From positions 269,624 through 333,623 of the IMG/VR virus record IMGVR_UViG_3300033067_001661: DNA of 64,000 bases. The stretch is one strand, 5' to 3'. Each line of letters opens with the position of its first letter. The first letter of the stretch is position 1. The DNA comes from a virus (Duplodnaviria; Heunggongvirae; Uroviricota; Caudoviricetes). Below the pieces are notes generated by a model. It worked only from the letters and a program-made list of their open reading frames with translations. It made no database searches and was not told the DNA's origin. Position numbers and translations under genes: made by a program. Positions 19,383 through 62,816 of the stretch are shown here, piece by piece.

Positions 19383-20036
19383 TTATGTCAACCTATTTAA
19401 CCACTCTAACCTAGGAAGCCCATTGGGTTTACACTCGTCAATGGCTGCCTGCAAAGAAATCTTGGGCCAGTATGGTGCATCGCCACAATTCGTTACGGGA
19501 ATCGGAGATTCACGGCTGATCCATTCCATTGCCGCAGAAAAATTGGTCAGAGTATTTGTACTATGATTCTTGTTCTTTCCATAAAAATCCGTTTGCTCTC
19601 CTCGATAAGAACAATCGCAACCGAGAAGAACAACTTTAGAAAAACCCATCGCAACGGCAAGCTGAACAGAAAGACAAGCTGTTGAACCGCCGCCATGCAA
19701 AACGCTTGGGTCTTCTCCAAAAGAAAAACCACCTCGCTCTATTCTAAAATGCGTAAACAGTTCTTCTTTGTCTATTTCTTTTCTTGTTAGTTTTGCGCAA
19801 GCAAGAGTAACAAGATCACGAAAACAATCTTCATACAAAGATTCATCCTGCCACATAAGAATGCATGGCGAAAGAACCTTATATGCTCGATTCGTGCCTA
19901 TGGTAAAATAGTTCTTGATTAGGTCAAGATTGTTGTCAAGAAGAGAAGGCCCATTGCCTATTATGAAAGCTGTCTCACCGACAAACCTTTTCTTCCAGAG
20001 CTTTATGGGAAACTTGTATCTCGACCTAAAAATCAT
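19383..20036 (-). CDS. GNGPSL-motif protein, paralog 1. CstII/GT42-sialyltransferase-like or DUF115 (MptE/Maf-like) fold. Putative glycosyl/nucleotidyl transferase.
   Basis: FIIGNGPSL near the N-terminus and GGGSTACLSVQLAVAMGFSKVVLLGCDC in the centre, matching the (A)GNGPSL ... AVAIALGYKEIYLSGID layout of Campylobacter Cst-II and DUF115 proteins. Start corrected to the internal ATG (MIFRSRY), which abuts the upstream stop. Confidence 0.4.
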   Translation of the reverse strand: MIFRSRYKFPIKLWKKRFVGETAFIIGNGPSLLDNNLDLIKNYFTIGTNRAYKVLSPCILMWQDESLYEDCFRDLVTLACAKLTRKEIDKEELFTHFRIERGGFSFGEDPSVLHGGGSTACLSVQLAVAMGFSKVVLLGCDCSYRGEQTDFYGKNKNHSTNTLTNFSAAMEWISRESPIPVTNCGDAPYWPKISLQAAIDECKPNGLPRLEWLNRLT

Positions 20037-20719
20037 AACAAGAACTGATTCCAATACTCTCTGTTTTGTTTATGCTTAGCGTCTATCGAAGATAACACTG
20101 AAGAAAGAGATTGTCTAGGAAACAAATCATTATCAGAGCAACTAATGATTGTTCTTTTACCGCTTTCGTGCAAATCCTTAATCCAGGAAAGACCTACATA
20201 ACACTGAGACATTGTTCTTGGATTATGAAACTTGTTGTTGCCGTAAAAATCGCTTTCGCCGTCTCTTGGCCTACAGTCGCAACCAAGTAGAATTATCGGA
20301 TTACAACCCATTAAATAAGCAAGCTGAACGGCCAACGGCGACGTTGACCCGCTCCCTTTTAGAGTTGATACAGTTTCTGGTAAAGCAAAGCCACCAGGAC
20401 TAATCTTAAAATGATAGTAACGATTCTCTGGATCTGCATGAGCAGTACAATACTTGATAGCCTTTACTTCTGATAATCTCTTGCGCTCAGAATACCAAAG
20501 GCTAGCGTCCTGCCACATAAGAATCGTTGAATCAAGTTTATAGAAAGACCTGTTTATACCTATGGTTAGGTAATTAGATAAAGGGGTGATGTCTTCGTCA
20601 TTGAGAGAAGGTCCATTACCCAGTATGAAAACTGGACAATTAGGGAACTTTCCCAACCACTTACGAGCATCACCCCTTTGCTTGATTGACGAATACCTGA
20701 TTCTACGTCGCTGCTGCAT
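20033..20719 (-). CDS. GNGPSL-motif protein, paralog 2 (tandem duplicate of 19383..20036).
   Basis: FILGNGPSL, TILMWQDASLW, LLGCDCRPRDGESDFYGNNKFH, all parallel to paralog 1. Likely start at the internal ATG (MQQRRRIRYS) ~20719 rather than the track start at 20809. Confidence 0.4.
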   Translation of the reverse strand: MQQRRRIRYSSIKQRGDARKWLGKFPNCPVFILGNGPSLNDEDITPLSNYLTIGINRSFYKLDSTILMWQDASLWYSERKRLSEVKAIKYCTAHADPENRYYHFKISPGGFALPETVSTLKGSGSTSPLAVQLAYLMGCNPIILLGCDCRPRDGESDFYGNNKFHNPRTMSQCYVGLSWIKDLHESGKRTIISCSDNDLFPRQSLSSVLSSIDAKHKQNREYWNQFLL

Positions 20720-21329
20720 CTGCTGCCCCAAACGGATTGCCTTCAACCTTGACGAACTGAGTCCAGGATGATGGAACGTTTGACGAGGCAAGCCTTGCAA
20801 AGCGAGCATAAACAGGACTCCACTTTGGCCTCTCAGGCTTCTTCAAAAGCTTGAGACCTGCCTCGTCTGGAGTTCTATCGGCCTTTTTCGCATTGACTTC
20901 CAGGCAGCACATAACCAGGTTTTCCCAAGTGCTTGCGCCGCCTCTTGATCTTGGAATAACGTGGTCAATAGTACCAGTATCCATTGAAATACTTCTACCC
21001 GTGTATTGACAGGTATAGTTATCTCTAATCAAGAGATTTCTACGAGTTAGCTTGACCTCTCTTTGAGGAAGCCTCTCGTACTCTGAAAGAACAATGATTT
21101 CCGGGACTCGAACCTCAGTTCTAGAAGTCCTGATAACCCTTTCTCCCTCTCGAACTGGCAAAGTCATCCAGTCCTCAAAGTTGTACAAGATATAGGTTTC
21201 AGGATCAAGAATATGAGCGAGACCAAGCATCGTCTTGGCAATTGCCTTCTTCGTAGTGCAAATCGAAACAGGACTCCAACTCTTGTTCAAAACGAGAGTC
21301 GGCATTGTGATTGAAGATTGAGTTGCCAT
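20703..21329 (-). CDS. HNH endonuclease.
   Basis: HNH core IDHVIPRSRGGASTWENLVMCC (His-Asn-His with Cys ligands). Confidence 0.7.
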   Translation of the reverse strand: MATQSSITMPTLVLNKSWSPVSICTTKKAIAKTMLGLAHILDPETYILYNFEDWMTLPVREGERVIRTSRTEVRVPEIIVLSEYERLPQREVKLTRRNLLIRDNYTCQYTGRSISMDTGTIDHVIPRSRGGASTWENLVMCCLEVNAKKADRTPDEAGLKLLKKPERPKWSPVYARFARLASSNVPSSWTQFVKVEGNPFGAADAAAT

Positions 21330-26344: not shown

Positions 26345-27283
26345 TTACATCATCTTCGACAGATTATCCATAAATTCTTTTCTTCTGCGAGGACTCCATC
26401 CTTTTGCATCGAAAGCGGCGTTGAGCTTGTCGTTTAGATTCTCTACATTCATTAGAGACTTGTAAATATCAACCTCGTCATGAGAAATATGCACAGACTT
26501 CATTCTATGAATTTCAAAAGCTTCTGTAGCAATAGGAGCGAGTTCTTTGCAAATATTGTACATAGCCTCAGCGTACACTCTGATCTCATACTGAGCATGA
26601 GGATCGTATCTTAATCCTATAAAGTGATACAAGTTATGAAGATCAATCTTCCAATACCACTCAGTGTAATACGCAACTGGCAAGAACATTCTTGCAGTCT
26701 CTCTTGAAACGCCTTGAGATAAAAACTCTTGATAATCGCCATATGTTTCAGAAGCGACAGTCTGCAACCTACCAATAAAGGCGTCTTTCGTTTCTTGAGA
26801 CAAGCTTCCGTCAGAGACTTGTTTATTCATTTTGCTCTGCCCCATTATCCTTTCAGGATCTGGAACATAGCAAAGGTCAGGAACTTCCGAGTAACGAGCC
26901 GAATACTCGTTGACGTTAGCTGTTCGATGGCGAATCCACTGTCGAGCAACAAACATAGGCATTCTGGCATGAAACTTGAACTCAACCATTTCAAACGGAG
27001 TCGTATGACGATGCCTCATGAGATAGTTAATGAGGCCCTTATCCTCATTAACAGCCTTTGTACCTCTTCCATAGGAAACTCTTGCAGCCTGAACAATGGC
27101 TGCGTCAGCAGGAATGCTGTACGGGTCTGTTGGGCTAGGCATCGAATCAACAAGGCGAATGAAACCAGCGTCTAGAACCTTGTGAACCTCAAAAGCCTTA
27201 TGGGGTTTCTCTTGCTCAGGATAAACAACACTTTCATTATGCATATGAACCTCTTCGTTTACTCTGTCATTCGGCATTTCCAT
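26345..27283 (-). CDS. thyX: Flavin-dependent thymidylate synthase ThyX.
   Basis: ThyX signature RHRTANVNEYSARY (RHR-x7-S). ORF track extends to 27418 with a Cys/Leu-rich 45-aa extension that overlaps the plus-strand gene at 27391. The internal ATG (MEMPNDRV) ~27283 is the more likely start. Confidence 0.85.
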   Translation of the reverse strand: MEMPNDRVNEEVHMHNESVVYPEQEKPHKAFEVHKVLDAGFIRLVDSMPSPTDPYSIPADAAIVQAARVSYGRGTKAVNEDKGLINYLMRHRHTTPFEMVEFKFHARMPMFVARQWIRHRTANVNEYSARYSEVPDLCYVPDPERIMGQSKMNKQVSDGSLSQETKDAFIGRLQTVASETYGDYQEFLSQGVSRETARMFLPVAYYTEWYWKIDLHNLYHFIGLRYDPHAQYEIRVYAEAMYNICKELAPIATEAFEIHRMKSVHISHDEVDIYKSLMNVENLNDKLNAAFDAKGWSPRRRKEFMDNLSKMM

Positions 27284-27390
27284 CGCACAACAAAGGAGAT
27301 ACACCCAACAAAGACAATAGCGTAAAGAGGAAAAAGAAGTGGAATACCGAAAATGATGTGTAAGGAGAACACTACATTGAAGGTCTATAT

Positions 27391-28002
27391 ATGAAATGGT
27401 ATGAAAAAGCAATCCCAAGAATACGAGACATTCAGCCTTATCTAAAAGAGGCTTCGAAGAATATTTCTAATTTCAAGCAAGTTAAGAACATATATGCTTG
27501 GGGTTCTCTCGCTGAAAACTTCAACAAGAAAGACCATAGAATCAAAGACGTAGACATACTTATTGAATGCAACTTTGATTCTGGCGATTTACTAGCTATT
27601 GACAACAGCTTCAATGGCGCTCTAAAAATGTCTTCTGAAGAGCTAGAAGACTTAGGATTCAATCCGGCAGCCGTTCTCTTTACGAAGTCAATACTAAGCC
27701 ATAAAATGCCTTCTATTGATTTCTGGGCAGTCTCAAAGGACAAGAAACTACTGCACTGGGGACCAATAACCGAGACAGTTGAAGAGTGGAAGCAGGTTAG
27801 AAAAGAAGCCGAAAACAAAGCCGAGATTCTAACAGGTTTCAAAAACAAAGAGGTTCTTAGCGCTTCAGAAAATGACCGAAAGAAATGGCATGAAGCATAT
27901 GAAAAGTATCTTCAGGATTTCTCAAGCGGTTGTCCTCAAGGATGGTACTCTTCTCAAAACAATGTAGATAAGATATTCGAAAAAGCCGTTAAGCTTTTAT
28001 GA
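27391..28002 (+). CDS. Minimal nucleotidyltransferase-fold (pol-beta superfamily) protein.
   Basis: GS-x(n)-DxD motif: AWGSLAENFNKKDHRIKDVDILIE. N-terminus MKWYEKA shares the recurrent MxWY motif. Confidence 0.5.
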   Translation: MKWYEKAIPRIRDIQPYLKEASKNISNFKQVKNIYAWGSLAENFNKKDHRIKDVDILIECNFDSGDLLAIDNSFNGALKMSSEELEDLGFNPAAVLFTKSILSHKMPSIDFWAVSKDKKLLHWGPITETVEEWKQVRKEAENKAEILTGFKNKEVLSASENDRKKWHEAYEKYLQDFSSGCPQGWYSSQNNVDKIFEKAVKLL

Positions 28003-28796: not shown

Positions 28797-29306
28797 ATGA
28801 TCAAATCTATCTTAGATGCAACCTGTCAAATCTTTGTAGCAATTCTTGGAAAGTTTCGTTCCAAAAAGACAGTCGAGGCACCAGCCGTAAGTCTTCAAAA
28901 CGAACAAGCGATTACCATAACAATCAAAGCCGACGAAGAGAATGTAGAAACAAGCATTCCCGTCATTACAAAAGACAAACTACTGTTTCAACCCAATACG
29001 ATGCAGGCAAATAGTCCTCTAGAATGCCCTATTCGTTCTAAAAATCAACAAGCGTCAACAGAGATATCTATTGACGCTCCTAAGATTGAAAACTTCAAAA
29101 TAACGATTGAATGCAATGAAACAGCCATCAATCATCTCAACAACCTTTGTAGGTTCTTTGAAGTGAATCAGCCAGACGCCCTTGCAAGAGGGGTTTGGTT
29201 GCTCACAATAGCGAGAGATGTTGAAGTTAACAATAAGAAACTTGGTATCATAACGACAGACCAGAATGGTCTAATTGTTGACGTTATGCCAATCAATATT
29301 GTTTAA
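28797..29306 (+). CDS. Hypothetical protein (169 aa).
   Basis: ORF with AGGAAGG-like SD upstream. No recognised motifs. Confidence 0.3.
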   Translation: MIKSILDATCQIFVAILGKFRSKKTVEAPAVSLQNEQAITITIKADEENVETSIPVITKDKLLFQPNTMQANSPLECPIRSKNQQASTEISIDAPKIENFKITIECNETAINHLNNLCRFFEVNQPDALARGVWLLTIARDVEVNNKKLGIITTDQNGLIVDVMPINIV

Positions 29307-29894
29307 GTCTTATCTACAATAAGAATACCATTACAAACAGCTTTGCAAAGTTCAATAAATCTATCTAGACATAAATCCGATTTCATCTTATTTATGTCTT
29401 TATGAACCCATTGAATGTTATTTTTCTTGTAACCTAAATTTGAATCAATTCTATCAAGAGAAGCGGTTGTTTTACCATTCTTATGCTCTTTTATAGAATT
29501 AGCAAAAACAATATCCAACCCCGTTATAGCACACTTTTTATTTTGTTTCTCGTACAAAGATTGAAGATATTCCTTGCTAATTGAATGGTCAAAAATCAAT
29601 TTCTCTCGCACTATGCTTTATGTGCGCAAATAACACGGATGATATTTTGCCATTAAGTTTTCTATCTTCAGCTTTACAATTTCGACATTTACTGCTTCTT
29701 CCAGAGAGTAGATGGTCTTGTATTATTTTTGCAGTTCTCCCGCATTCGCATATACAGTTCCATCTATGAGTATATCTTTGCTTTTTTCTTCTATTATCAA
29801 TACCAATAATAGGATCTGCCTTGTCTATAACATTCCATTTGCCAAACTTATTTCCAGATAAGTTTTTAGGCGTTTTCATAAACATAAATTGCAC
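29303..29894 (-). CDS. HNH_3-type homing endonuclease. N-terminal GNKFGKWNVI + Cys4 zinc finger in one frame, HNH (LDRIDSNLGYKKNNIQWVHKDINKMK) in the +1 frame. Either disrupted by a frameshift (pseudogene) or expressed by +1 ribosomal frameshifting.
   Basis: ORFs 29589..29894 and 29303..29611 overlap by 23 nt. Together they reconstitute the usual ~195-aa architecture (LxGxxFGxLxVI, CxCxCG...CxxC, then DRID..GY...N..W). Junction is at GAU UUU UGA C (29588-29597). Confidence 0.55.
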
Positions 29895-29943
29895 TCCACA
29901 CTTAGGTTAGTGTGAAATACAATATATGTGTTGAGATTCCTTC

Positions 29944-30093
29944 TTATTTATCCAGAATTGTAATTCCATTTAAGTGGTCAATCTCATGCTGAGCGCAACG
30001 AGCTTCTAAGTCTCTTAGATGCTCTTTTACTTTCTTGCCCTCATAATTGATATACTCAATGAGTATGTACCTGCTTCGAACAATTTCTTTTCG
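29944..30093 (-). pseudogene. def: Peptide deformylase C-terminal fragment (motif 3 QHEIDHLNG) without its N-terminal half on this strand.
   Basis: Minus-strand translation ...CLFPGFRKEIVRSRYILIEYINYEGKKVKEHLRDLEARCAQHEIDHLNGITILDK matches the PDF C-terminal half (CLS.PG...V.R...EGK...QHE.DHL.G). Upstream on this strand is only antisense of the acidic gene. Confidence 0.6.
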
Positions 30094-30133
30094 AAAGCCT
30101 GGAAAGAGGCAAGTTCCTATAAGGAGATAAGAA

Positions 30134-30334
30134 ATGGGACGAGAAAAGGAATTTGAAGACATTGAGGACTCGTTTGAAAGAGAAGAAGACGACGACCTCG
30201 ATCTTGACGATGAGGACGAAGACGAGGACGAAATCGAAGACAAAGAAGACGAGTTTGACGATGACGAAGAGTACGAAGACGATTACGAAGACGACGATGA
30301 CGACTTCGACCTCGACGACGATGACGAGTTCTAA
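30134..30334 (+). CDS. 66-aa hyper-acidic protein (about 70% Asp/Glu); DNA-mimic or anti-restriction-like candidate.
   Basis: MGREKEFEDIEDSFEREEDDDLDLDDEDEDEDEIEDKEDEFDDDEEYEDDYEDDDDDFDLDDDDEF. AAGGAG SD 6 nt upstream of the ATG. Strong terminator immediately downstream. Confidence 0.6.
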   Translation: MGREKEFEDIEDSFEREEDDDLDLDDEDEDEDEIEDKEDEFDDDEEYEDDYEDDDDDFDLDDDDEF

Positions 30335-30340
30335 ATTAAA

Positions 30341-30366
30341 CCCCGCTTCTTGGCGGGGTTTTCTTT
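30341..30366 (+). terminator. Rho-independent terminator after the acidic-protein gene.
   Basis: CCCCGC-TTCTTG-GCGGGG stem followed by TTTTCTTT. Confidence 0.65.
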
Positions 30367-30369
30367 GGT

Positions 30370-30990
30370 GAAAAACTGGCCGAGTTCGTTTGTATATTCC
30401 GAAAGAGTGAATTGAACGATAAGCAGCCTTCTGTAGTCGGAACGCAGAAGGCGAATGAACAAGAGTATTCGAGACTCTTATCTCTTCTCGAATAGGCTTT
30501 CCCTCTTTGGCCTCTGTTGTAAAGGGGGTTACGCTCTAAAAGAGCGGTCTTTGCTGAGAATTCCGACTTCTACAGCATTGTCTTGGAATCCCGCAAGGGA
30601 TAGCTGCTCAACAAGCTTTGCCTTTTCACTTGTTGACGTAGGTGAAAACAAGACGGCCTGACTGAATGAGAACTAAGTCTTAACGCCGACCTTAAAAGAC
30701 CAACTTAGTAACCGCTTCGGCGGATTCAGTCGCTTTCGCTTTTCTTTTAGAGATGCGTTGGCGGCTGAAAAGGTTGTTGCGCAGCGCAATGGCGCAATTA
30801 AGTTGTTATAGCGCATTACAAAATACTCTTCTATATACTGATACGGATTTGCGATAGCAAAGACGTATCACCGAGCGTAGCGAGGAAAAAGCTGATAACG
30901 TTCCAAACTCCCCTATCCCAATGAAAAGGTACAGTTTTAGAGTGCCGAAACCTGCTTCCAAAATTGAAATTTTCAAACTAAGGACTTAAC
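30370..30990. other. ~620-nt region with no credible ORF, rich in perfect hairpins including UUCG-type tetraloops; candidate structured non-coding RNA or relic. Strand unknown.
   Basis: Hairpins TATTCGAGA...TCTCGAATA (9 bp), CGCTCT-AAA-AGAGCG, CCGC-TTCG-GCGG, GCCTTCTG...CAGAAGGC; repeated GCGCAAT units. Only one 68-aa ORF of low plausibility. Confidence 0.3.
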
Positions 30991-30993
30991 AGA

Positions 30994-31308
30994 TTGAACA
31001 TCGAAGACGTACAACTCATGCAAATACCTTCAGAAATACTTCGACAGAAGTGTATTGAAGTTGATTATTTTGAAGATCTAAAGCCTTTTGCTGACAAGAT
31101 GCTATCTATTATGCTAGCTAACAATGGTATTGGGTTAGCAGCAAATCAGGCAAATATTCCCTGGAGAATGTTTGTAATGAAAACCGAGAAGATGAAGAAA
31201 CCAAAAACCTTCATCAACCCGGTTATTCTTTATGAATGCGTTCCATACAAAGATTCAGAAGGCTGTTTATCTTGCCCTGATGAAAGACTTCTTTTTCGAT
31301 ATTGCTAA
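30994..31308 (+). pseudogene. def: Peptide deformylase N-terminal fragment (motifs GIGLAANQ and EGCLS), truncated just after EGCLSCPDE.
   Basis: MNIEDVQLMQIPSEILRQKCIEV...ANNGIGLAANQANIPWRMFVM...FINPVILYE...DSEGCLSCPDE aligns with E. coli PDF from residue 1 through motif 2, then diverges and stops. The C-terminal half lies ~900 bp away on the opposite strand. Confidence 0.6.
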
Positions 31309-32002
31309 CTGCAATACCGTTCAGGTGTTCAAAATGAGTTGTTCTAAAAACTCTGTTACCTTTCCTCTGTAAAAAACCCTTCCAGAAGGCTATTCTACCT
31401 TCAGCCCAGGTCTTATCGTCAACAAAAGAAAACTCTTTGCGAACCATTGCGGTTAGCCCAAAGAATGTTTCGACAGGAGTTGAAGCGATTCTTAATAGAT
31501 CAATATCAACAATTAGATTCGCCTCATAATCCGCTTCAGGAGGGTTCTTGTCGTGTCTTGTCCATATAACAAGATCGTGAATTCTTCCGGCTCTTTCGGC
31601 TGAGAATCCCATACTAACAAGGTCTTCAAGCGCATACCAAGCGCTTTCTTCTTCGTTTGTTGTCGTCTTCGGGTTTAGACGGTAAATTGAATCGTGATAG
31701 AACCAGGCCAACAAAACGTCGTCAATTGATCCCTCAGAACAATCGCAATCGCTTTCAATTGAGAGTATATCTTTTACACCCTCAATGACATGGTTGAAGT
31801 CGTGATATTGACGATCAACATGAGGTTCCTCAGAGACTGGAGTTGCGTATTTCGCAACAAGAGTATCAAAGTTTGCCCTGGTTTGAACAAGAGCAGAAAG
31901 ACTTGATCTTGCATTGATTGCTCTGTCATAGATGTAAAAGAGATAATCCATCCCAATATCGGGAGTCAATCTCTTATCTGCCATCTTTGTGAAATCTCTC
32001 AT
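31223..32002 (-). CDS. Hypothetical protein, possibly an HD-like metal-dependent hydrolase (several H/D pairs). Weak.
   Basis: 259-aa ORF. YHDFNHV, WFYHDSIY, RIHDLVIWTRHD. Its 3' end overlaps the PDF N-terminal fragment by 85 nt. Confidence 0.3.
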   Translation of the reverse strand: MRDFTKMADKRLTPDIGMDYLFYIYDRAINARSSLSALVQTRANFDTLVAKYATPVSEEPHVDRQYHDFNHVIEGVKDILSIESDCDCSEGSIDDVLLAWFYHDSIYRLNPKTTTNEEESAWYALEDLVSMGFSAERAGRIHDLVIWTRHDKNPPEADYEANLIVDIDLLRIASTPVETFFGLTAMVRKEFSFVDDKTWAEGRIAFWKGFLQRKGNRVFRTTHFEHLNGIAVSNIEKEVFHQGKINSLLNLCMERIHKE

Positions 32003-34027: not shown

Positions 34028-35034
34028 TCAACAAGAGGCTGACCCTTGATGATTGGTATATCGAATAAGCAGCTATCCCCAAACTTGTTTTTCACGTGAT
34101 CAATCATAATGCTACTATGAGTTGTCACAATAAACTGTTTAGTTGGAAACTTTTCCAGTATCTTTTCCAGCATTTTTACATGCCTTTTAAAGTATACATG
34201 CATTTCTATATTATCAACGAGAACGATATCGCTTTTGTCAATAACAGCAGGGTCGCAGAGATTTCTTAGAAGCGTTGCAATCTTCTTCTCTCCTGCGCTC
34301 ATGGATTTGTAATGGACTTTAACTTCACCCTTCTGAATCACAAAGTCCTGATAGAATGCAAGTTCAGCATTTTTGTGGTCAGAAAGATGAGCGTAAATCT
34401 CTTCCTTTGAAACTGTTGGTTTTGATTCTGAGGAAGCGATTGCTTTGTAGTTATTTGCGTAAACGCTTATAATCTCTTTAAGAGACTCATTACCCGCTTC
34501 AACGCCTGTAGCTGAAACAGGTTTCTCAACAAAACACTTGTACCCATATATTGCTTCTGCAAGTTCAAGAAAAAGCTCAATCCTCTCGGACGGGATTTGG
34601 AACTTACTATTGTTTATAGGATGGTCTGCGTCAATGAATACTATGTTTTCAGAACCTAGATTTGCAAGATCGTTTCTTATAACATCATCGTCTTTGATGT
34701 GAACGATAAGCTCTTCGCCTTTCTGGTTTTCAAATATAGCAATCATTTCCATATCTTCGTTGTACTTTGTAAAACCTGCGTAGTTTGGGTCGTAGTCTGG
34801 ATGGAACTGCATCTTCCTTAGAAGAAGGTTCTCTTCGTCTTTCTTTCTTTTTGAGTATGCCTTGGCTCTAGAAAGAACAGCAATAGCATTAAGCCCTGTG
34901 CTTTTTCCGCAACCGTTTGGCCCAAAGAATACGCAAAGAGGTTTATAAGAACCGTTGTTATATGTGAATCTGAAAATGCTTCGCTTATTGAAACCTGCGT
35001 AGTTGGATAGTTCTAGTGAACGAATTTTGAGCAT
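34024..35034 (-). CDS. ABC/SMC-type ATPase of the AAA_15/AAA_21 (RecF/OLD-like) class.
   Basis: Walker A FFGPNGCGKST. ABC-signature-like MSAGEKK. Walker B IVLVDNIEMHV. H-loop-like VTTHSS. No fused nuclease domain. Confidence 0.7.
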   Translation of the reverse strand: MLKIRSLELSNYAGFNKRSIFRFTYNNGSYKPLCVFFGPNGCGKSTGLNAIAVLSRAKAYSKRKKDEENLLLRKMQFHPDYDPNYAGFTKYNEDMEMIAIFENQKGEELIVHIKDDDVIRNDLANLGSENIVFIDADHPINNSKFQIPSERIELFLELAEAIYGYKCFVEKPVSATGVEAGNESLKEIISVYANNYKAIASSESKPTVSKEEIYAHLSDHKNAELAFYQDFVIQKGEVKVHYKSMSAGEKKIATLLRNLCDPAVIDKSDIVLVDNIEMHVYFKRHVKMLEKILEKFPTKQFIVTTHSSIMIDHVKNKFGDSCLFDIPIIKGQPLVD

Positions 35035-35041
35035 GAAAAAA

Positions 35042-35075
35042 CCTCCTGACTAACCGTTTATCGGCAATCAGGAGG
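35042..35075 (-). promoter_or_regulatory. Perfect 8-bp hairpin (CCTCCTGA...TCAGGAGG) followed by U6, directly upstream of the ATPase start. Acts as a terminator for the upstream gene and sequesters the ATPase Shine-Dalgarno (GGAGG).
   Basis: Minus strand reads CCTCCTGATTGCCGATAAACGGTTAGTCAGGAGGTTTTTTC-ATG. The 3' arm contains the only SD for the ATG at 35034. Confidence 0.5.
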
Positions 35076-35095
35076 TCGGAAAGGGGGTAGCAATT

Positions 35096-35344
35096 TTAGT
35101 TCTTTGGTTTTGCCTTTTTCTTGGCCTTTTTAGGTTCAGGGTTTTTCTTTTGGAACCAGCCCATCTGATTCAGAATGACGGTCGGCTCAATCGGGTTCTC
35201 GTCGTCCTCTACTCCAAGAAATACAAACGCAAACCTTTTGCCCTTTGGGGACTTAAAGGTTACGTTCATGCCGCCACCAAGTTTGTTGACGAAGCTGGTT
35301 GTTGCTACAACCTGCCCTCTATTTAGAGAAAAAGCGCTTGACAT
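35096..35344 (-). CDS. Small protein (82 aa) with a lysine-rich basic C-terminal tail (KKAKKKAKPKN).
   Basis: ORF with stop in an AAG AAC TAA A context. Possible nucleic-acid-binding tail. Confidence 0.4.
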   Translation of the reverse strand: MSSAFSLNRGQVVATTSFVNKLGGGMNVTFKSPKGKRFAFVFLGVEDDENPIEPTVILNQMGWFQKKNPEPKKAKKKAKPKN

Positions 35345-35527
35345 TCTTGACCTTTTCGGAAATCTTGTAACAGAACCATGAAATCATGGCAAGGATTGCC
35401 ATGCCCATAACATGCTTTTGATGCATAGCACTATTGCGGTCGGATTCCTCGGCAACAGGTTGCATGAAATCTTCAAACTTCTTACTCATAAGCAATCCCC
35501 CGCCCTTTCGAGTAGGGGACTGTTGTA

Positions 35528-36781
35528 TTACTTGGTGACGGGAAGGGTCGCGGGAGTGGTTGTTGAGGCATTGAAGGGGGTATTAGGACGAGCAGAAGGC
35601 TGACCAAGAGCCGTTCTGATAGCGCCCATGAAGTCGCCAGACAGAGAGGTGAAGCTCATGTTCTGAGGGAGGAAACCGTTGAAGTTCTGGAATGCAGAAC
35701 TCATGTTTCGAGAAATCTCAATCTGAGCAAAGGTCTGCCCGCCGATTCCCTCATAAGCCGCATAGAGAAGCTTCTGTGCTTCGGCCTTGGCGCGGCCCTC
35801 AGCAAGAACAGCAGATGCTCTGTTCTCAGCAGCCGCCTTCTCAGCCTCAGACGCAATCTTCAATCTTTCAGCCTCAGCCTGAGCCGCAAGAATGGTTTGC
35901 TGCTTCTGCGCTTCAGCAGCGGTCAGCTTTGCGGCGGCTTCCTGCTCAGCCTTGAGCTTGGCAACCTGCTTGTCTCTTTCGGCCTCAACAACCGCCTTGT
36001 TCAGGTCAGCCTGGGCAACGGCTCTTACTCTCAGAGCGTCAGCCTCAGCAGCTTTGGTTTCTTCGTCGGCGCGCAACTTCTTTTGCTGGGCAATCTGACG
36101 GGCCTTGATTTCCTCAGTGTACTTCGGGTCAAGACCAATCTTCTCAATAACGAAGTTTTCGACAACGATTCCCTGCTTACGGAGTTCGCTGTCAGGAGAA
36201 GCAAGATCCTGCTCGATTTCAGTCTGCAACTTAACAAGGCCTTCGCCAGAATAGGCGTCAGTCGCCTTCATCTTTGTTGCATGATTTTTGACGACCAACT
36301 GAACAGTATTGCGAAGAAGACGCTCTTCGATAATGTTCGGGTCTGCGGCGTCCATGTGAGCATGATAATTCTTGTGGATGCCAACAATGTTGGACTGATC
36401 AAATCTCCAACGAACACTGAGATTGATGTGCATGTCTTGCTGGTCTTGCGACTGGACAAGATATGCGTCATAGTCTCTTCCATGACCGCTTTCGCCCGCT
36501 GAAGCAGGAGAATCATTCATGACGAAAACTCTGCTCGTCATGTCGTAGCGATAGATGTTGGTCGTCATTCGGTTTCTGGAATAGGTTCCAGGAGGAAGAG
36601 GGTTGGGATCAACACCACTCCAGGTCTCTTTGACGCCAACCTCGCTACCAGCAACGGTTTCGAGGTCAACAAGGGTAACACCACACAGAAGAAGACCAAC
36701 ACCAATAACACCCGAAATAGCAAGCTTGACCGGAAATTGACTCATCGAATTTGCTCCTGAATATGGACTTCTGCGACTCAT
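35528..36781 (-). CDS. SPFH/band-7 domain protein (flotillin/YqiK/HflKC-like) with an N-terminal TM helix and a long Ala/Glu/Lys coiled coil.
   Basis: N-terminal hydrophobic segment. SPFH-like core. AQQKKLRADEETKAAEADALRVRAVAQADLNKAVVEAERDKQVAKLKAEQEAAAKL typical of flotillin-like proteins. Confidence 0.65.
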   Translation of the reverse strand: MSRRSPYSGANSMSQFPVKLAISGVIGVGLLLCGVTLVDLETVAGSEVGVKETWSGVDPNPLPPGTYSRNRMTTNIYRYDMTSRVFVMNDSPASAGESGHGRDYDAYLVQSQDQQDMHINLSVRWRFDQSNIVGIHKNYHAHMDAADPNIIEERLLRNTVQLVVKNHATKMKATDAYSGEGLVKLQTEIEQDLASPDSELRKQGIVVENFVIEKIGLDPKYTEEIKARQIAQQKKLRADEETKAAEADALRVRAVAQADLNKAVVEAERDKQVAKLKAEQEAAAKLTAAEAQKQQTILAAQAEAERLKIASEAEKAAAENRASAVLAEGRAKAEAQKLLYAAYEGIGGQTFAQIEISRNMSSAFQNFNGFLPQNMSFTSLSGDFMGAIRTALGQPSARPNTPFNASTTTPATLPVTK

Positions 36782-37248
36782 GACTTTCTTTCTGACTGCC
36801 GTTGCAGCCTGTCGATCTGATCGAGAACTCGATCAGTTTCTGCGGCGGTTTCTGCGGCTCTCCTCTTTAGCTCTTTATCCTTGTAATGCTTGAGAAGATT
36901 AAGGCCTAAGCAAACAACCCCAACAAGGGCTACTGGAGGGACGACAAACTCAAGCAACTGAGGACGCCGAGCAAAGATTGAGACCAGGAAAATAACGGCA
37001 CAAAAACCAAACATAACTAGTGTTATGGTTCCGTAATGATCCTTTTGAGGAACAAAAACAGCGCCTTTATCGGACAGATTCTTGTACTCTTCACCCTGTC
37101 TGTAGAGGTCAACTTGCTCTTTCTTGAACATAACGGTGTTTCTGTCCCTAAACTGTTGAAAAACACCGTCTTCACCAAGTTGATGAACCTTTGAAACGGG
37201 TAGACCAAGCTGGTCTGCGGCTTCTTTCTCTGTTACGAACATTTTCAT
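36778..37248 (-). CDS. Membrane protein (2 TM) with an N-terminal HTH-like segment, translationally coupled to the SPFH gene (NfeD-like partner candidate).
   Basis: 4-nt overlap with the SPFH start. Hydrophobic LVMFGFCAVIFLVSIF and VPPVALVGVVCLGLNLL. Confidence 0.4.
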   Translation of the reverse strand: MKMFVTEKEAADQLGLPVSKVHQLGEDGVFQQFRDRNTVMFKKEQVDLYRQGEEYKNLSDKGAVFVPQKDHYGTITLVMFGFCAVIFLVSIFARRPQLLEFVVPPVALVGVVCLGLNLLKHYKDKELKRRAAETAAETDRVLDQIDRLQRQSERKS

Positions 37249-44835: not shown

Positions 44836-46452
44836 TTAGGACTTGACAACAGCGCCAATCGGAGGAGCCTTGACGCTGTTCAAGTTGAGGCCCATCTTCT
44901 TGACATCCTCAGCGCTCTTGAAGGGCTGACCAGTGCCGTCAGCGTTAGCGACCTGGAGGAACTTCATGAGAGTCTCAGTAACGGCGAGGTCAGCAATCTG
45001 CTTGAGAACAGGAGGCAGGTTAGCGCCGCCCGTTGCAGCAATGCCGCGACCGATACCAGCGCCCAAGCAGGCGAGGCCGACTTCCATGACCGAAGGACCG
45101 TCGCCCGTCTTGGCCCCGTTGAGGAGGCGCATGTGAGGCTCCATGCCCTTCATGGCAATGATGAGGTCTTCGCTGGTGACCTGACCAGTGATATCGTTGG
45201 TGCGAGTAAGCGCCGAAATCTTGCTGCGCTCAACGCATTCGCGGATAGTCGCCGGAATCTGACCCGCCAAGAACTCAGCGGCAGGATTCAGGTCAGTGCC
45301 GACAGCGAGCAAGTCGCCGCCGTACTTCTGAATCAGACGCAGCGTTGCCTCGCGGTCGGGCGGCTCAACAGGGATAACCGTGTCGATACGACCAGGGCGG
45401 AGGAAGGCGCGGTTGATGTTCTCGGCGTGGTTGGTCGTCAAGATCGTAATGATCTCAGCGTCCTTGTAGTCAGCGCCGTCAATGGTGTTCAGCAACTCGT
45501 TCAACTGAGTGCTGCGAGGACCGTTGGTAGCAATATCAACGTCCTCAGCAAAGATGACGCAGGGCGAGTACAGCTTGGCGTACTTCAGAGCAATCGGCAG
45601 GTCTTCGACGTTCGAAACGTACATGAACGTCCAGCCGTTGTCTTCGCAAATCTTGGCCGTGGTGTAGGCGGTCAAGGTCTTGCCGCAGCCGTAAGGACCA
45701 GTGAGAAGAACGCCGCGCTTGAGAGGAATACCGAACTCGCGGAACGCGCCCGTCTTCTCAATCGCAGAGAACAGACCAGTCTGGATGAGGTCAGCAACTT
45801 CCTTGCCGAAAACAAGGTTGTCCTTACGAGCGTTGGAAACGTCCAGGAAGGTCGGAGCGTCATTGGTCGGGTGGAAATCGCGGCCTTCGCGCATCCAGGC
45901 GAACGAGACCTTGATAGCCTTGCCCTTGTAGATGCTCTTCTCGCGAAGGTTCTTCTCGGTACGAGCCGCAATGTTCTGTACCGACTTCTGGTACTTCTTG
46001 AGAATCGTACCGCCGATGATGAACTTCGGCTTGGTGTTACCCTTGCCAGGGATGACGGTCGTAAGAACGCTGTCCTTCAACTGGGGGAACGAAATGTTAC
46101 CCCAAGGAACCTGAGTCTTGGCGTTGTGACCAATCGGAACCGTCATCATGGTCGGAGGGGTCGGACCACAGAAACCAGGAGTCGGAGTACCGATAGCAAT
46201 ACCGAACTCCTCAAGACAGGCGCGATTGAAGTTCACCAAGCCGTCGAGAGGGAAACATTCGATCTCATGGTTGATAGACGTTTCGGCCTCTTCGTCAGCC
46301 TGAATGCCGCGAAGAGCGTCAATCGCCTCCTGAATCTCCATGTCGCGGGGGTCGCTCGGCAGAGTAATCAGCTTGCCAGAACGCTCAACCTGAACGTCCT
46401 GAAAGGGATTCTCCTGAAGTTCCGTCTTCTTTGCTTTGGGAGTGATAGGCAT
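44836..46452 (-). CDS. AAA+ ATPase (538 aa) encoded in a conspicuously GC-rich island.
   Basis: Walker A LLTGPYGCGKT, Walker B VIFAEDVDI, arginine-finger region FLRPGRID. GC content and codon usage visibly differ from flanking genes. Confidence 0.75.
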   Translation of the reverse strand: MPITPKAKKTELQENPFQDVQVERSGKLITLPSDPRDMEIQEAIDALRGIQADEEAETSINHEIECFPLDGLVNFNRACLEEFGIAIGTPTPGFCGPTPPTMMTVPIGHNAKTQVPWGNISFPQLKDSVLTTVIPGKGNTKPKFIIGGTILKKYQKSVQNIAARTEKNLREKSIYKGKAIKVSFAWMREGRDFHPTNDAPTFLDVSNARKDNLVFGKEVADLIQTGLFSAIEKTGAFREFGIPLKRGVLLTGPYGCGKTLTAYTTAKICEDNGWTFMYVSNVEDLPIALKYAKLYSPCVIFAEDVDIATNGPRSTQLNELLNTIDGADYKDAEIITILTTNHAENINRAFLRPGRIDTVIPVEPPDREATLRLIQKYGGDLLAVGTDLNPAAEFLAGQIPATIRECVERSKISALTRTNDITGQVTSEDLIIAMKGMEPHMRLLNGAKTGDGPSVMEVGLACLGAGIGRGIAATGGANLPPVLKQIADLAVTETLMKFLQVANADGTGQPFKSAEDVKKMGLNLNSVKAPPIGAVVKS

Positions 46453-46801
46453 ACGCTTCTTACCTCATTTTTCTCCGCACAACGGCGGACTAGGAAACTG
46501 AAAGGACCGAAACCCTTCGGCCCAACTGACAGAACAATAGCACCCCAAACAATGCGAAGAAAACTCTTGCATGTGGAAATACAGAGAATCTTTTCGCTTT
46601 TCGTGTCTTTGGAAGCATTCTCGCTTTTACTATAGGTGACGTTTGAGCCGCCAAAAGAGAACGCCCGACCTTTTCAGGTACGGGCGCTGAGTATTTTCGC
46701 CGGTTTTCTCTTTTCTCGCCTCTCCGATTACTCGCAAGGTGTAAAAAGCATCTCTGCCTTTTACAAGACCGTACAGGTCTCGGTAGCCTGGTTATAGGAA
46801 C

Positions 46802-55759: not shown

Positions 55760-56618
55760 GCCATCTCAAAGCTGCGGGTAACTGTTTAGGCCATACATAC
55801 CTATATAGCTCGCTCTTCATAACTTGTACACTCTTATTACCAAAACCTCTTATCAAAGCTTTCTTCGCTTCGTCAAAAGTCCATCTTCCGCCATACCTAT
55901 CAACAAAGCTCTGTACAAACTTGTTAGGGTCAAACTCCTCGTCTACCCTAAATACCCTTCTTGAAGCCAAGGTCGATTCATGATTACTGTTACCCTTGAA
56001 CTCGTAACCCTTGTTGCTTGCCAAGAACTGTTGTCTTGATACGTTAGATAGCTGACCGTTGCGGTTGTCTCTTAGCCATACCCTGATAATGCGGTTCGGA
56101 TTCAAGTGTCCAACGAATAAAGCTTGGCTCTCGCCAAATCCTAATAGCGTATTCGCAAGCTCAGGTCTTTCGCTCTGAGCGATGGGCGGAATATTACGGT
56201 CTACCGCTCGTTGCCTTGCTCGAACTCTTTCTTCTTCTCTTTTGGCTTTGCTGTTGCCAAAGTATTGAGCCATCTCACCTTGAACGGTATAAGAACCGCC
56301 TGGCCAAACAGGAGCCTCAAGCTCGCTCATGTTCGCATGAAACTCGACTATCCAAGCTCCAAACTCCGAAGCTTTCTTTGGGTCTGTTGTTACAAATAAT
56401 CCTGTAGGATTGTTGTCGGCTTCATATGAGTAAACCCTGCCAACTCTTGACTTGCCAGATAATCCGTAACGACATGCGGCTATGGCGTCCTCCAAATCCC
56501 TAAAACCATGAAAGACCCTTATTACGTCGTTGGTCTTTAGGGTTGGTCTTTCTTCAGGACTTCTACCAGGAGGTAAAGTAAGCCTGTCTGCAAACTTAGC
56601 AAGATCATACCAACTCAT
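55725..56618 (-). CDS. Hypothetical protein. Start corrected to the internal ATG (MSWYDLAKF), which abuts the upstream stop.
   Basis: ORF track 55725..56726 overlaps the upstream gene by 112 nt. The ATG at ~56618 gives a 4-nt overlap instead. Confidence 0.4.
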   Translation of the reverse strand: MSWYDLAKFADRLTLPPGRSPEERPTLKTNDVIRVFHGFRDLEDAIAACRYGLSGKSRVGRVYSYEADNNPTGLFVTTDPKKASEFGAWIVEFHANMSELEAPVWPGGSYTVQGEMAQYFGNSKAKREEERVRARQRAVDRNIPPIAQSERPELANTLLGFGESQALFVGHLNPNRIIRVWLRDNRNGQLSNVSRQQFLASNKGYEFKGNSNHESTLASRRVFRVDEEFDPNKFVQSFVDRYGGRWTFDEAKKALIRGFGNKSVQVMKSELYRYVWPKQLPAALRWLGREYKNRNVV

Positions 56619-56998
56619 GCAGGCCGTCCTTCCCTCATAATCTTCTGAACGAAGTTCATGACTTGAGAGTTTGGAGGCATGCTCTTGAGTTTGTTGTATT
56701 CTTCGTGAGAGCCTATCCAATACCATATAAACTGAGATTGAAACTTAACAGCTAATGCTCTGTAACGACCGCCAACCTGAGCAGACCAAACTTCTAGCTT
56801 TCCCCTATTTTCGGGTAATGGTTTAATGCCGACTTGTTGAGGATTGGAAAGAAGCGTTTGATATTTTTGAGAGGCTAGCTGTTGAACTTGAACTGGCAAC
56901 AAGGATAGCGAGTCTCTGAAGCTCTTGGTATGCCAATGCCCAGTATCGAATCCGGCTTCTACAAGCCTACAATAGTTTTCAGAGATTATAAGTTTCAA
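56615..56998 (-). CDS. Small protein with a RelE/HigB-like toxin-fold C-terminal signature.
   Basis: GKLEVWSAQVGGRYRALAVKFQSQFIWYWIGSHEEY resembles the HigB/RelE-family C-terminus (LKGDREGYWSITVRANWRITFQFINGDAYILNYEDYH). Confidence 0.4.
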   Translation of the reverse strand: MKLIISENYCRLVEAGFDTGHWHTKSFRDSLSLLPVQVQQLASQKYQTLLSNPQQVGIKPLPENRGKLEVWSAQVGGRYRALAVKFQSQFIWYWIGSHEEYNKLKSMPPNSQVMNFVQKIMREGRPA

Positions 56999-58277: not shown

Positions 58278-58281
58278 ACCA

Positions 58282-59376: not shown

Positions 59377-59411
59377 AAGGTATCCCTCTGTGCGCGAATT
59401 TTAATTGACGG
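59377..59411. repeat. Intergenic repeat copy A (AAGGTATCCCTCTGTGCGCGAATTTTAATTGACGG).
   Basis: One of three near-identical ~35-nt copies spaced ~950 bp apart. Overlaps the stop codon of paralog 1. Confidence 0.7.
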
Positions 59412-60303: not shown

Positions 60304-60328
60304 GTTAGTAATTATTCGTCTAAAAGGC

Positions 60329-60371
60329 AAGGTATCCCTCTTGCGCGAATTTTAAGTGACGGCGTACCCTT
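60329..60371. repeat. Intergenic repeat copy B (AAGGTATCCCTCTTGCGCGAATTTTAAGTGACGGCGTACCCTT). Lies between the paralog 2 stop and the paralog 1 ATG.
   Basis: Near-identical to copies A and C. Ends (AAGGTA ... TACCCTT) form an imperfect inverted repeat. Confidence 0.7.
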
Positions 60372-62783: not shown

Positions 62784-62816
62784 GGGCTGTCCTTTCTTCC
62801 TTACAAGCGACGGCAG

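What the first reader, a model, noticed from the sequence alone, without database searches (positions are those of the whole stretch)
29944..31308. Peptide deformylase gene split into two halves on opposite strands, separated by an acidic-protein gene and a structured non-coding stretch
The PDF N-terminal half (motifs GIGLAANQ and EGCLS, intact from residue 1) is on the plus strand at 30994-31290. The C-terminal half (QHEIDHLNG) is on the minus strand at 29944-30093. Both fragments break at the CL(S/F)P position. This fits a ~1.2 kb inversion (approx. 30100-31290) whose breakpoint fell inside an originally minus-strand def gene. A short similar motif TTCTTTT(T)CGA occurs at both junctions (30084-30097 and 31289-31299) and includes the palindrome TTTCGAAA on the left. 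Alternatives are two independent pseudogene remnants or an assembly mis-join. Auxiliary phage def genes are known, but a programmed or relic inversion through one has not been described to my knowledge.
Basis: partly seen in the sequence, partly recalled or inferred. Interest (0 to 1): 0.7.

Follow-up and report, generated by a model that had tools for sequence, protein, structure and literature searches.

The report
Fixed inversion splits phage deformylase gene
A 1,187-base piece of an uncultivated huge-phage genome was flipped once, without any repeat or recombinase signature, cutting the phage's auxiliary peptide deformylase gene in two; this is a real but ordinary gene-killing rearrangement, and the more interesting item is the conserved structured RNA, about 570 nt long and not in Rfam, that sits inside the flipped piece.

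Summary
A peptide deformylase (def) N-terminal fragment lies on the + strand (30994-31282) and the C-terminal fragment on the - strand (29944-30095). Four non-inverted relatives carry an intact def, and window 30096-31282 is exactly inverted relative to them. Both joints are blunt and reciprocal: no base was lost or gained, and there is no microhomology or inverted repeat. Rejoining the halves gives a perfect 146-aa def.

It is not an assembly artefact. The same two junctions, 100% identical, occur in contigs from several independent datasets, including Tokyo wastewater run DRR198489, SRR23702519 and four JGI samples.

It does not look like a switch. The rejoined def and the un-inverted neighbour protein of this lineage are absent from a 15-billion-protein collection. 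No recombinase catalytic domain was found among the window ORFs examined, and the event destroys def and rewrites the tail of a neighbouring HD phosphohydrolase.

Verdict: a recent, fixed, illegitimate inversion that turned an auxiliary def into a pseudogene.

Two details were wrong. The 'CLFP' next to the C-half is a chance antisense match, and the TTCTTTT(T)CGA motif is at chance level.

Separately, the 'structured non-coding stretch' is a strongly covarying RNA of about 570 nt. It is conserved across this huge-phage clade, always follows a small acidic-protein gene, and has no Rfam match.

The parts
29944..30095 (-). def C-terminal fragment (codon 97, bases 2-3, through the stop; motif QHEIDHLNG). 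It has no in-frame start of its own inside the def part.
   Evidence: Pfam PF01327 profile positions 95-149. Collinear with the def 3' halves of L001, L006, L083 and L182. Sequence read.
30096..31282 (.). The inverted segment (1,187 bp). Breakpoints are 30095|30096 and 31282|31283. It carries the acidic gene with its ribosome-binding site, the hairpin, the structured RNA and def codons 1-96.
   Evidence: blastn orientation flips exactly at these positions against four relatives. No bases are lost or gained.
30134..30334 (+). Gene for a 66-aa D/E-rich acidic protein. It is ancestrally the next gene after the HD phosphohydrolase on the same strand.
   Evidence: ORF list. A small acidic gene occupies the same place in all relatives. 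No Pfam or PHROG hit.
30338..30361 (+). GC-rich hairpin followed by a U-run (terminator-like), directly after the acidic gene and conserved in the clade.
   Evidence: alignments A2 and A6.
30358..30930 (+). Conserved structured non-coding RNA candidate (about 570 nt; ends approximate). Covarying helices lie at 30466-30494, 30503-30526, 30534-30544, 30603-30643 and 30725-30769. A near-invariant core lies at about 30654-30710.
   Evidence: It is 97-98% identical among close relatives whose flanking coding DNA is about 90% identical. MFE z-score is -5.05. In the 11-sequence alignment A6, 93.8% of cells are paired against 35-44% when slid; 31 pairs show compensatory changes; 0 of 500 shuffles reach this. 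Covariance model R1 finds it in sequences not used for training, at E 1e-29 to 1e-44. No Rfam hit. All six frames are full of stop codons.
30994..31308 (+). Truncated def ORF of 104 aa: def residues 1-96 (30994-31281; motifs GIGLAANQ and EGCLS) plus 8 junction-encoded residues ERLLFRYC.
   Evidence: Pfam PF01327 profile positions 4-99. The exact protein is found in other assemblies.
31223..32002 (-). HD-family phosphohydrolase gene. Its ancestral 8-aa tail (SLERGKFL) is replaced by 19 junction-encoded residues (31223-31282 is antisense of the def N-half).
   Evidence: phrog_19425 phosphohydrolase, E 4e-19. Relatives are 248 aa ending ...KEVFSLERG(M/K)FL, against 259 aa in the inverted lineage.
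29303..29894 (-). Freestanding HNH homing-endonuclease cassette inserted at the 3' end of def (insertion about 29334-29965). In the window it is frameshifted into two overlapping ORFs. It is independent of the inversion.
   Evidence: PHROG endonuclease/HNH hits. Absent from L001, L006, L164 and L182; present in L083 and L165. Intact at 193-194 aa in L178, L179 and L009.

Best explanation
In the recent ancestor of this phage lineage a single non-homologous (illegitimate) recombination event cut the DNA at two unrelated points. One cut fell inside def, between the first and second base of codon 97. The other fell 8 codons before the stop of the upstream HD-phosphohydrolase gene. The 1,187 bp between the cuts was rejoined in reverse orientation with no gain or loss of bases.

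The ancestral order on the gene strand was HD phosphohydrolase -> acidic protein -> hairpin -> structured RNA -> def. After the flip, def is a pseudogene. Motifs 1 and 2 (GIGLAANQ; EGCLS with the Cys metal ligand) sit on a 104-aa stub. Motif 3 (QHEIDH, with the two His ligands and the catalytic Glu) sits on a start-less fragment on the other strand. The HD protein acquired a new 19-aa tail. The acidic gene and the RNA now point the other way but are intact.

The rearranged genome is viable and has spread; it is found in several wastewater and other metagenomes.

Shown: the inversion, its exact ends, its derived state, its reality, its presence in multiple datasets, and the absence of repeats. 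Inferred: the molecular mechanism (rejoining of two breaks, or a topoisomerase-type exchange), the loss of deformylase activity, and the tolerance of that loss because def is an auxiliary gene.
For: The two def fragments were identified by Pfam.

Four non-inverted relatives with intact def show an orientation flip exactly at 30095|30096 and 31282|31283. In the relatives the corresponding positions are contiguous: L001 8720|8721; L006 211|212; L083 9094|9095 and 10289|10290; L182 3185|3186 and 5289|5290. More distant clade members all have intact def in the ancestral gene order, so the window state is derived.

The rejoined halves give a 441-nt, 146-aa ORF without stop or frameshift. It has about as many lineage-specific amino-acid changes as its intact relatives.

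The same junctions occur in independent assemblies: DRR198489 (Tokyo WWTP effluent, PMC9419991), SRR32380194, SRR23702519, JGI 3300045332/33/72/77 and a 333,623-bp JGI contig. All contigs read are 100% identical to the window over whatever part of 30003-31705 they cover, and their outer flanks are mosaic.

There is no inverted or direct homology between the breakpoint regions above shuffled controls, and zero microhomology.

Exact look-ups find the derived proteins but not the rejoined def or the HD protein with its ancestral tail from this lineage.

No serine or tyrosine recombinase catalytic domain was found in the window ORFs scanned or in the precomputed annotations of overlapping contigs.
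Against: No reads were available, so a minority of un-inverted molecules within these populations cannot be excluded.

Only 64 kb of a genome of at least 333 kb was examined, so a recombinase or a second def copy could lie elsewhere.

The mechanism is inferred only from the blunt, homology-free joints. Perfectly conservative joints with no loss at either end are somewhat unusual for random break-and-rejoin and would also fit an enzyme-mediated exchange.

Loss of enzymatic function is inferred from the known roles of the three PDF motifs and was not tested.
Confidence: 0.88

Rival explanations
1. Programmed, reversible inversion: an invertase-driven switch that turns def (or the acidic gene/RNA module) on and off within the phage population.
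For: Both joints are perfectly conservative, as in site-specific recombination. Multi-HTH proteins with resolvase-type HTH_7 domains are encoded at 59401-61234. Short JGI contigs of the inverted lineage end inside the segment, which could reflect graph branching.
Against: There are no inverted repeats and no shared core at the two ends: the inverted-alignment score is 6-8 against a shuffle mean of about 8.

The HTH proteins lack a resolvase or recombinase catalytic domain.

Orientation tracks sequence lineage. Every contig holding this lineage's exact junction-adjacent proteins (the 104-aa def stub, the 66-aa acidic protein) and reaching a junction is inverted, and every other relative is non-inverted.

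The rejoined def and the ancestral-tail HD protein of this lineage are absent from 15 billion proteins, while the derived forms are present.

The 'off' state destroys one ORF and alters another rather than swapping modules.
Confidence: 0.04
2. Assembly artefact: a mis-join or chimeric inversion produced by the assembler or by amplification.
For: The window comes from a metagenome assembly, and the first searches of IMG/VR, the metagenome-contig collection and GTDB genomes found no second copy of the junctions.
Against: Both reciprocal junctions are reproduced base for base in independent assemblies of independent runs and projects. These include a strain lacking the HNH insertion and strains with up to 9% divergent flanks. 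There is no inverted repeat that could mislead a de Bruijn graph.
Confidence: 0.01
3. The two fragments are remnants of two different def genes (different lineages), not two halves of one gene.
Against: The apparent overlap is a chance antisense match outside def. The halves abut to the base on intact relatives. L182's intact def reads CCTGATG|TTCGAAAAGAAATTGTTCGAAGCAGGTA, which is identical to the rejoined window sequence. There is no other def-like sequence in the window.
Confidence: 0.01
4. The split def is still functional: the two fragments are expressed separately and reassemble, or the 104-aa stub has a new function.
For: The 104-aa stub keeps its start codon and upstream region. It is 100% conserved in all inverted-lineage contigs, and neither half has decayed.
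Against: The identity reflects recency: the whole stretch 30003-31705 is identical, non-coding parts included. The C-half has no in-frame start within def and no ribosome-binding site. Its only upstream start is a TTG inside the antisense of the acidic gene, which would add a poly-serine leader. The metal ligands are divided between the fragments (established knowledge of the PDF motifs).
Confidence: 0.03

Closest known systems
Phage-encoded auxiliary peptide deformylases (cyanophage S-SSM7 PDF, Frank et al. 2013; PDFs of huge phages, Al-Shayeb et al. 2020, PMC7162821)
   Same: The ancestral gene is a compact (146-aa) phage PDF with all three catalytic motifs. It is carried by an uncultivated huge-phage clade (related contigs 231-506 kb) next to nucleotide-metabolism genes.
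   Different: In this lineage the gene is broken in two by an inversion and cannot encode a complete active site. This shows the gene is dispensable for this phage.
Site-specific DNA inversion switches (phage Mu Gin/G segment, P1 Cin, Salmonella Hin, shufflons, invertons)
   Same: A discrete DNA segment of about 1 kb is flipped with base-perfect joints.
   Different: There are no flanking inverted repeats, no invertase catalytic domain among the window ORFs examined, and no sign of both orientations in one lineage. The flip destroys genes instead of alternating them.
Illegitimate (homology-independent) recombination, e.g. the type II topoisomerase/gyrase subunit-exchange model or rejoining of two double-strand breaks (general knowledge, not tested here)
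   Same: A reciprocal rearrangement between two sites that share no homology, with no loss of sequence.
   Different: No enzyme or cleavage motif could be tied to the two sites. The assignment rests on exclusion.
Freestanding HNH homing endonuclease genes of phages (T4 Mob/Seg-like behaviour)
   Same: A 0.6-kb HNH cassette sits at the 3' end of a conserved gene (def). It is present or absent among near-identical genomes, with a cluster of substitutions next to the insertion point (29953-30002).
   Different: It is frameshifted in the window. Its distribution is independent of the inversion: all four combinations of HNH +/- and inverted/non-inverted exist. A causal link to the break 130 bp away is only speculation.
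Large structured bacterial and phage non-coding RNAs (GOLLD, ROOL, OLE, HEARO and similar Rfam families)
   Same: The non-coding stretch is long (about 570 nt) and multi-helix. It is more conserved than neighbouring genes, shows abundant compensatory base-pair changes and is phage-borne.
   Different: It matches no Rfam model at gathering or permissive thresholds, in the window or in four distant homologues. So far it is restricted to one huge-phage clade, and it always follows a tiny D/E-rich protein gene.

Membership tests
Peptide deformylase (Pfam PF01327) | Motif 1 G(I/V)GLAAxQ and motif 2 EGC(L/I)S (Cys metal ligand) | tested here: met
   GIGLAANQ and EGCLS are in the + strand fragment 30994-31282. 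Pfam E 4.7e-21, profile positions 4-99.
Peptide deformylase (Pfam PF01327) | Motif 3 QHExDH (two His ligands and the catalytic Glu) | tested here: met
   QHEIDH is in the - strand fragment 29944-30095. Pfam E 5.3e-16, profile positions 95-149.
Peptide deformylase (Pfam PF01327) | All three motifs in one uninterrupted polypeptide | tested here: not met
   The fragments are on opposite strands, 898 bp apart and divergent. Intact 146-147-aa versions exist only in relatives. There is no second def in the window.
Site-specific DNA inversion switch (invertase/inverton/shufflon) | Inverted-repeat recombination sites at both ends of the invertible segment | tested here: not met
   The repeat finder shows no inverted-repeat pair spanning the two joints. 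Local alignment of the ancestral sites in inverted orientation scores 6-8 against a shuffle mean of about 8. Microhomology is zero.
Site-specific DNA inversion switch (invertase/inverton/shufflon) | A serine or tyrosine recombinase encoded nearby | tested here: inconclusive
   None was found among the window ORFs scanned against Pfam or PHROGs, nor in the precomputed Pfam annotation of overlapping contigs; only HTH-only proteins at 59401-61234. The genome is at least 333 kb and only 64 kb was visible.
Site-specific DNA inversion switch (invertase/inverton/shufflon) | Both orientations occur within one lineage or population | tested here: not met
   Every contig that holds this lineage's exact junction-adjacent proteins and reaches a junction is inverted. 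Exact look-ups of the un-inverted gene products of this lineage are negative, while the positive control is found. Read-level frequencies could not be tested.
Known large structured RNA families (Rfam 15) | Match to a family covariance model | tested here: not met
   No hit at gathering threshold in the whole window. No relevant hit at E<=10 in 29800-31400, nor at E<=5 in four distant homologous loci.
Structured non-coding RNA (generic criterion) | Conserved secondary structure supported by compensatory changes, and no conserved ORF | tested here: met
   A6: 73 pairs, 93.8% of cells paired against 35-44% when slid, 31 pairs and 101 cells with double changes, 0 of 500 shuffles reach this. A2 gives similar figures. 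Stop codons of all three types occur in all six frames of all 11 sequences.
Freestanding HNH homing endonuclease | HNH nuclease homology, and presence/absence polymorphism at one site among close relatives | tested here: met
   phrog_3322 at E 2.9e-18 and phrog_374 at E 1.5e-11. The insertion is present in the window, L083 and L165 and absent from L001, L006, L164 and L182.
Freestanding HNH homing endonuclease | Intact endonuclease ORF | tested here: not met
   It is split into two overlapping ORFs (29589-29894 and 29303-29611) in the window. It is a single 193-194-aa ORF in L178, L179 and L009.

The most novel reading that the evidence does not exclude
The 'structured non-coding stretch' inside the inverted segment (window about 30358-30930, + strand) is a previously undescribed class of large (about 570 nt) structured RNA. 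It is specific to a clade of uncultivated huge phages. It is always encoded directly after a tiny D/E-rich acidic protein gene and a hairpin, is under stronger purifying selection than the neighbouring enzymes, and has an unknown function, possibly as a ribonucleoprotein with the acidic protein. The inversion carried this module intact, which may be why the rearrangement was tolerated.
Probability: 0.7. Interest if true: 0.6.

Novelty: new member of a known kind. Interest (0 to 1): 0.35.

Why it matters
For the finding as posed, it matters little. It is a clean natural example of an auxiliary translation gene (def) being knocked out in a huge phage by a homology-free inversion, with the mutant lineage persisting across several metagenomes. 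This says def is dispensable for this phage. It also gives a base-perfect case of illegitimate inversion for anyone studying phage genome rearrangement.

It also carries a caution. A split gene with matching short motifs at the junctions can look like a programmed switch without being one.

The by-product matters more. The flipped piece contains a large, strongly covarying RNA that is unclassified in Rfam and conserved across a huge-phage clade. Large ornate RNAs of unknown function are rare, and each new class is a lead for new RNA biochemistry.

Tried and rejected
- **Known RNA families.** The non-coding stretch was tested as a group I/II intron, tmRNA, tRNA or other known RNA that might explain a split gene. 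Rfam (gathering and permissive thresholds) and ARAGORN were negative in the window and in relatives.
- **'FEHLNG' in the 259-aa ORF as a third def remnant.** Rejected. It is a conserved part of the HD phosphohydrolase C-terminus in all relatives.
- **'GTCLFPG' as duplicated def sequence (staggered break or two def copies).** Rejected. It is the antisense of the neighbouring gene's ancestral tail.
- **TTCTTTT(T)CGA or the TTTCGAAA palindrome as a recombination site.** Rejected. The copies are direct, lie outside the segment, and are at chance level. The 8-mer palindrome is created by the joint itself.
- **The HNH insertion as cause or marker of the inversion.** Rejected as a marker, because all four combinations of HNH +/- and inverted/non-inverted exist. 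A causal role of a nuclease cut remains untestable speculation.
- **Early searches that found nothing.** GenBank phage collection, megablast and tblastn with the SNF2 helicase: no close relatives. Junction and anchor pattern scans of IMG/VR and GTDB genomes: no extra inverted copies. Those came only from exact-protein look-ups in Logan and JGI assemblies.
- **Hidden ORF with a recoded stop codon in the non-coding stretch.** Rejected.
- **The RNA as a def 5' leader.** Unlikely. In L003, L009, L182 and L186 a 256-266-aa gene on the other strand separates it from def, whereas the acidic gene is always adjacent.
- **The 15/16-nt complementarity between 30418-30433 and def codons 31256-31271.** Weaker in relatives and probably chance.
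Full report
**1. What is in the sequence.**
The + strand ORF 30994-31308 (104 aa) matches Pfam Pep_deformylase at profile positions 4-99 (E 4.7e-21) and carries GIGLAANQ and EGCLS. The - strand ORF 29944-30243 matches positions 95-149 (E 5.3e-16) and carries QHEIDHLNG. Between them lie:
- a 66-aa D/E-rich gene (30134-30334, +);
- a terminator-like hairpin (30338-30361);
- about 650 nt with no credible ORF.

Left of the C-half is a frameshifted HNH endonuclease (29303-29894, -). Right of the N-half, and overlapping its end, is a 259-aa HD-family phosphohydrolase on the - strand (31223-32002; phrog_19425). The window is mostly minus-strand genes of a replication and nucleotide-metabolism region: RNR, dUTPase, ThyX, helicases, a sigma-like factor and a 3,422-aa ORF. 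It has no close relative among GenBank phages.

**2. Relatives show a precise inversion.**
A back-translated search with the rejoined def found IMG/VR and metagenome contigs with an intact def:
- IMGVR_UViG_3300033121_001642 (L001/L002);
- IMGVR_UViG_3300020576_007456 (L006);
- FRDC01002731.1 (L083);
- more distant members on contigs of 256-506 kb.

blastn of the window against L001, L083, L006 and later L182 (SRR26268948) gives the same picture each time. The flanks are collinear and window 30096-31282 is in the opposite orientation. The joints fall at 30095|30096 and 31282|31283. The corresponding positions are adjacent in every relative. No base is missing or added.

On the gene strand the ancestral order is HD phosphohydrolase -> acidic protein -> hairpin -> non-coding element -> def. 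This order holds in all distant relatives too, so the window's arrangement is the derived one. Rejoining 30994-31282 with the reverse complement of 29944-30095 gives a 441-nt ORF of 146 aa. It is 94-95% identical to intact relatives, has no stop or frameshift, and has no excess of private amino-acid changes.

**3.
- The def break is ...EGCLSCPD|VRKEIVRS..., after the first base of codon 97.
- The 'GTCLFPG' that seemed to duplicate the CLSP motif on the C-half side is the reverse complement of AGCCTGGAAAGAGGCAAGTTCC. That sequence is the first bases of the flipped segment and ancestrally encoded the HD protein's tail SLERGKFL*. It is a coincidence.
- The HD protein lost that 8-aa tail and gained 19 residues read from the antisense of def.
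- The def stub gained 8 residues (ERLLFRYC).
- The TTCTTTT(T)CGA motif is real, but both copies lie in the unflipped flanks, in direct orientation, 0 and 6 nt from the breaks. They encode K-E dipeptides in two unrelated proteins. Direct similarity of the two sites is matched by 657 of 1000 shuffles.

**4. Not an artefact.**
Exact-sequence look-ups of the junction-dependent proteins find them in independent assemblies.
- The 104-aa stub is in Logan contigs of DRR198489 (L164) and SRR32380194 (L165), and in JGI samples 3300045333, 3300045332, 3300045377 and 3300045372 (L172-L175). These span the right joint.
- The exact 66-aa acidic protein is in six contigs, and all four new ones (L178-L181: JGI 3300045372, 3300045332 and 3300045377; SRR23702519) contain the left-joint 26-mer.
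- DRR198489 is Tokyo wastewater-plant effluent (PMC9419991).
- L165 is 100% identical to the window over 11.5 kb and may be the same source.
- A 333,623-bp JGI contig carries the window's exact HD protein (P0070).

L164 differs from the window at 209 positions, lacks the HNH insertion, and is still collinear through both joints. All contigs read are 100% identical to the window over whatever part of 30003-31705 they cover. Further out they diverge in patches, up to about 9% overall in L172. One recent inversion has therefore been carried into mosaic backgrounds.

**5. Not a switch, as far as assemblies can tell.**
- There is no inverted-repeat pair at the joints. The inverted-orientation alignment of the two ancestral sites scores at or below the shuffle mean. 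Microhomology is zero.
- No resolvase, invertase or integrase catalytic domain appears in the window ORFs scanned or in the precomputed Pfam annotations of overlapping contigs. The proteins at 59401-61234 have only HTH domains.
- Orientation follows lineage: contigs with this lineage's sequence are inverted, and relatives that are 85-94% identical are not.
- Exact look-ups for the rejoined def (three start variants) and for three variants of the HD protein with the ancestral tail return 'not in the collection' of about 15 billion proteins. The derived 259-aa control is found.
- The event destroys one gene and edits another.

I cannot exclude a low-frequency minority orientation without reads.

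**6. Mechanism.**
Shown: a reciprocal, conservative, homology-free inversion.

Inferred: illegitimate recombination. This could be two double-strand breaks rejoined in reverse, or a topoisomerase-type exchange. Both are compatible with blunt, loss-free joints lacking homology, and nothing here discriminates between them.

The HNH cassette 130 bp from the left break is a tempting source of a break. However, it is absent from one inverted strain (L164) and present in one non-inverted strain (L083), so it behaves as an independent mobile element.

Consequence, from established knowledge of PDF: the Cys ligand (EGCLS) and the two His ligands and catalytic Glu (QHExDH) now sit on separate fragments. 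The C-fragment has no start codon of its own. Deformylase activity is therefore almost certainly lost. No other def is in the window. The lack of decay in either half, and the 100% identity of the region among inverted strains, indicate a recent event.

**7. The non-coding stretch.**
*Conservation.* In the alignment of the segment with L083 and L001, the non-coding part is about 97-98% identical while def and the acidic gene are about 90% or less. The few substitutions include paired changes in a hairpin. The + strand folds with z = -5.05, against -3.4 for the - strand. nhmmer finds the element in the distant clade members.

*Covariation.* RNAalifold on 7 and then 11 sequences predicts 83 and 73 pairs, of which 30 and 31 show compensatory double changes. 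For the 11-sequence alignment, 93.8% of cells are paired against 35-44% when partners are slid by 1-3 columns. There are 101 double-change cells against 8-18 when slid, and 0 of 500 shuffles reach the observed values (the 7-sequence figures are).

*Independent recovery.* A covariance model of the 173-nt core, trained on 7 sequences, recovers the element in four loci not used for training (L182, L183, L185, L186) at E 1e-29 to 1e-44. It finds nothing convincing in about 150 unrelated def loci.

*Non-coding and unclassified.* All six frames carry all three stop codons in every sequence. No Rfam family matches. A pattern for the invariant core hits only this clade in IMG/VR and nothing in GTDB genomes.

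*Context.* The element always follows the small acidic gene and its hairpin. In several relatives it is separated from def by an opposite-strand gene, so it is not simply a def leader.

*Caveats.* Its ends, its long-range closing helix and the fold of the invariant core (two alternative pairings were predicted) are uncertain. Its function is unknown.

**8. Verdict.**
It is a fixed, pseudogenising, illegitimate inversion, which is an ordinary kind of event, and not a programmed system. Interest in the inversion itself is low. The candidate new large RNA inside it deserves its own follow-up.

Noticed in passing
window 30358-30930 (+): Structured non-coding RNA candidate of about 570 nt, conserved across a clade of uncultivated huge phages. 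It is more conserved than the flanking genes, shows 31 covarying base pairs, has no Rfam match, and always lies downstream of a small D/E-rich protein gene.
   Followed up: yes
window 29303-29894 (-); insertion about 29334-29965: An HNH homing-endonuclease cassette is inserted at the 3' end of def. It is frameshifted into two ORFs here but intact (193-194 aa) in L178, L179 and L009. It is present or absent among near-identical genomes, with a cluster of 10 substitutions at 29953-30002 that looks like a co-conversion tract.
   Followed up: partly
L172-L175 and L178-L181 (contig ends at window 30403, 30553, 30699, 30920): Short JGI and Logan contigs of the inverted lineage repeatedly end inside the RNA element. 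Co-occurring strains may share the ultra-conserved RNA sequence and break the assembly graph there.
   Followed up: no
window 30418-30433 vs 31256-31271: A 15/16-nt complementarity between the RNA element and the def codons for SEGCLS. It is weaker in L001 and L083 and absent in distant relatives, so it is probably chance.
   Followed up: partly
window 59401-61234 (-), GC about 0.33: Two adjacent multi-HTH proteins (HTH_7 resolvase-type, HTH_38, HTH_58) without any recombinase catalytic domain, in an AT-rich patch.
   Followed up: partly
window 3398-13666 (-): A single 3,422-aa ORF. It was not analysed.
   Followed up: no
window 35001-37000, 45001-47000 and 62001-64000: Patches of GC 0.49-0.58 in a genome of about 0.40 GC. 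They cover a Band_7 gene, an AAA ATPase gene (with a long spurious antisense ORF) and a ClpS-like gene, and may be horizontally acquired.
   Followed up: no
window 56615-56998, 57456-58313 and 62490-62966 (-): A ParE-like toxin domain protein, a reprolysin-type (M12B) zinc metalloprotease and a ClpS-like adaptor encoded by the phage.
   Followed up: no
L182 7503-9368, compared with window 26345-27418: In the non-inverted relative L182 the ThyX gene is 621 aa with a faint LAGLIDADG hit (an intein or a fused homing endonuclease). ThyX is 299 aa in near-identical contigs of the window lineage (L164/L165; the window's mechanical ORF is 357 aa). This is another mobile-element polymorphism in the clade.
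   Followed up: no
window 19383-21329 (-): Two consecutive MptE-like (6-hydroxymethylpterin diphosphokinase-like) ORFs, next to another HNH endonuclease ORF (20703-21329).
   Followed up: no
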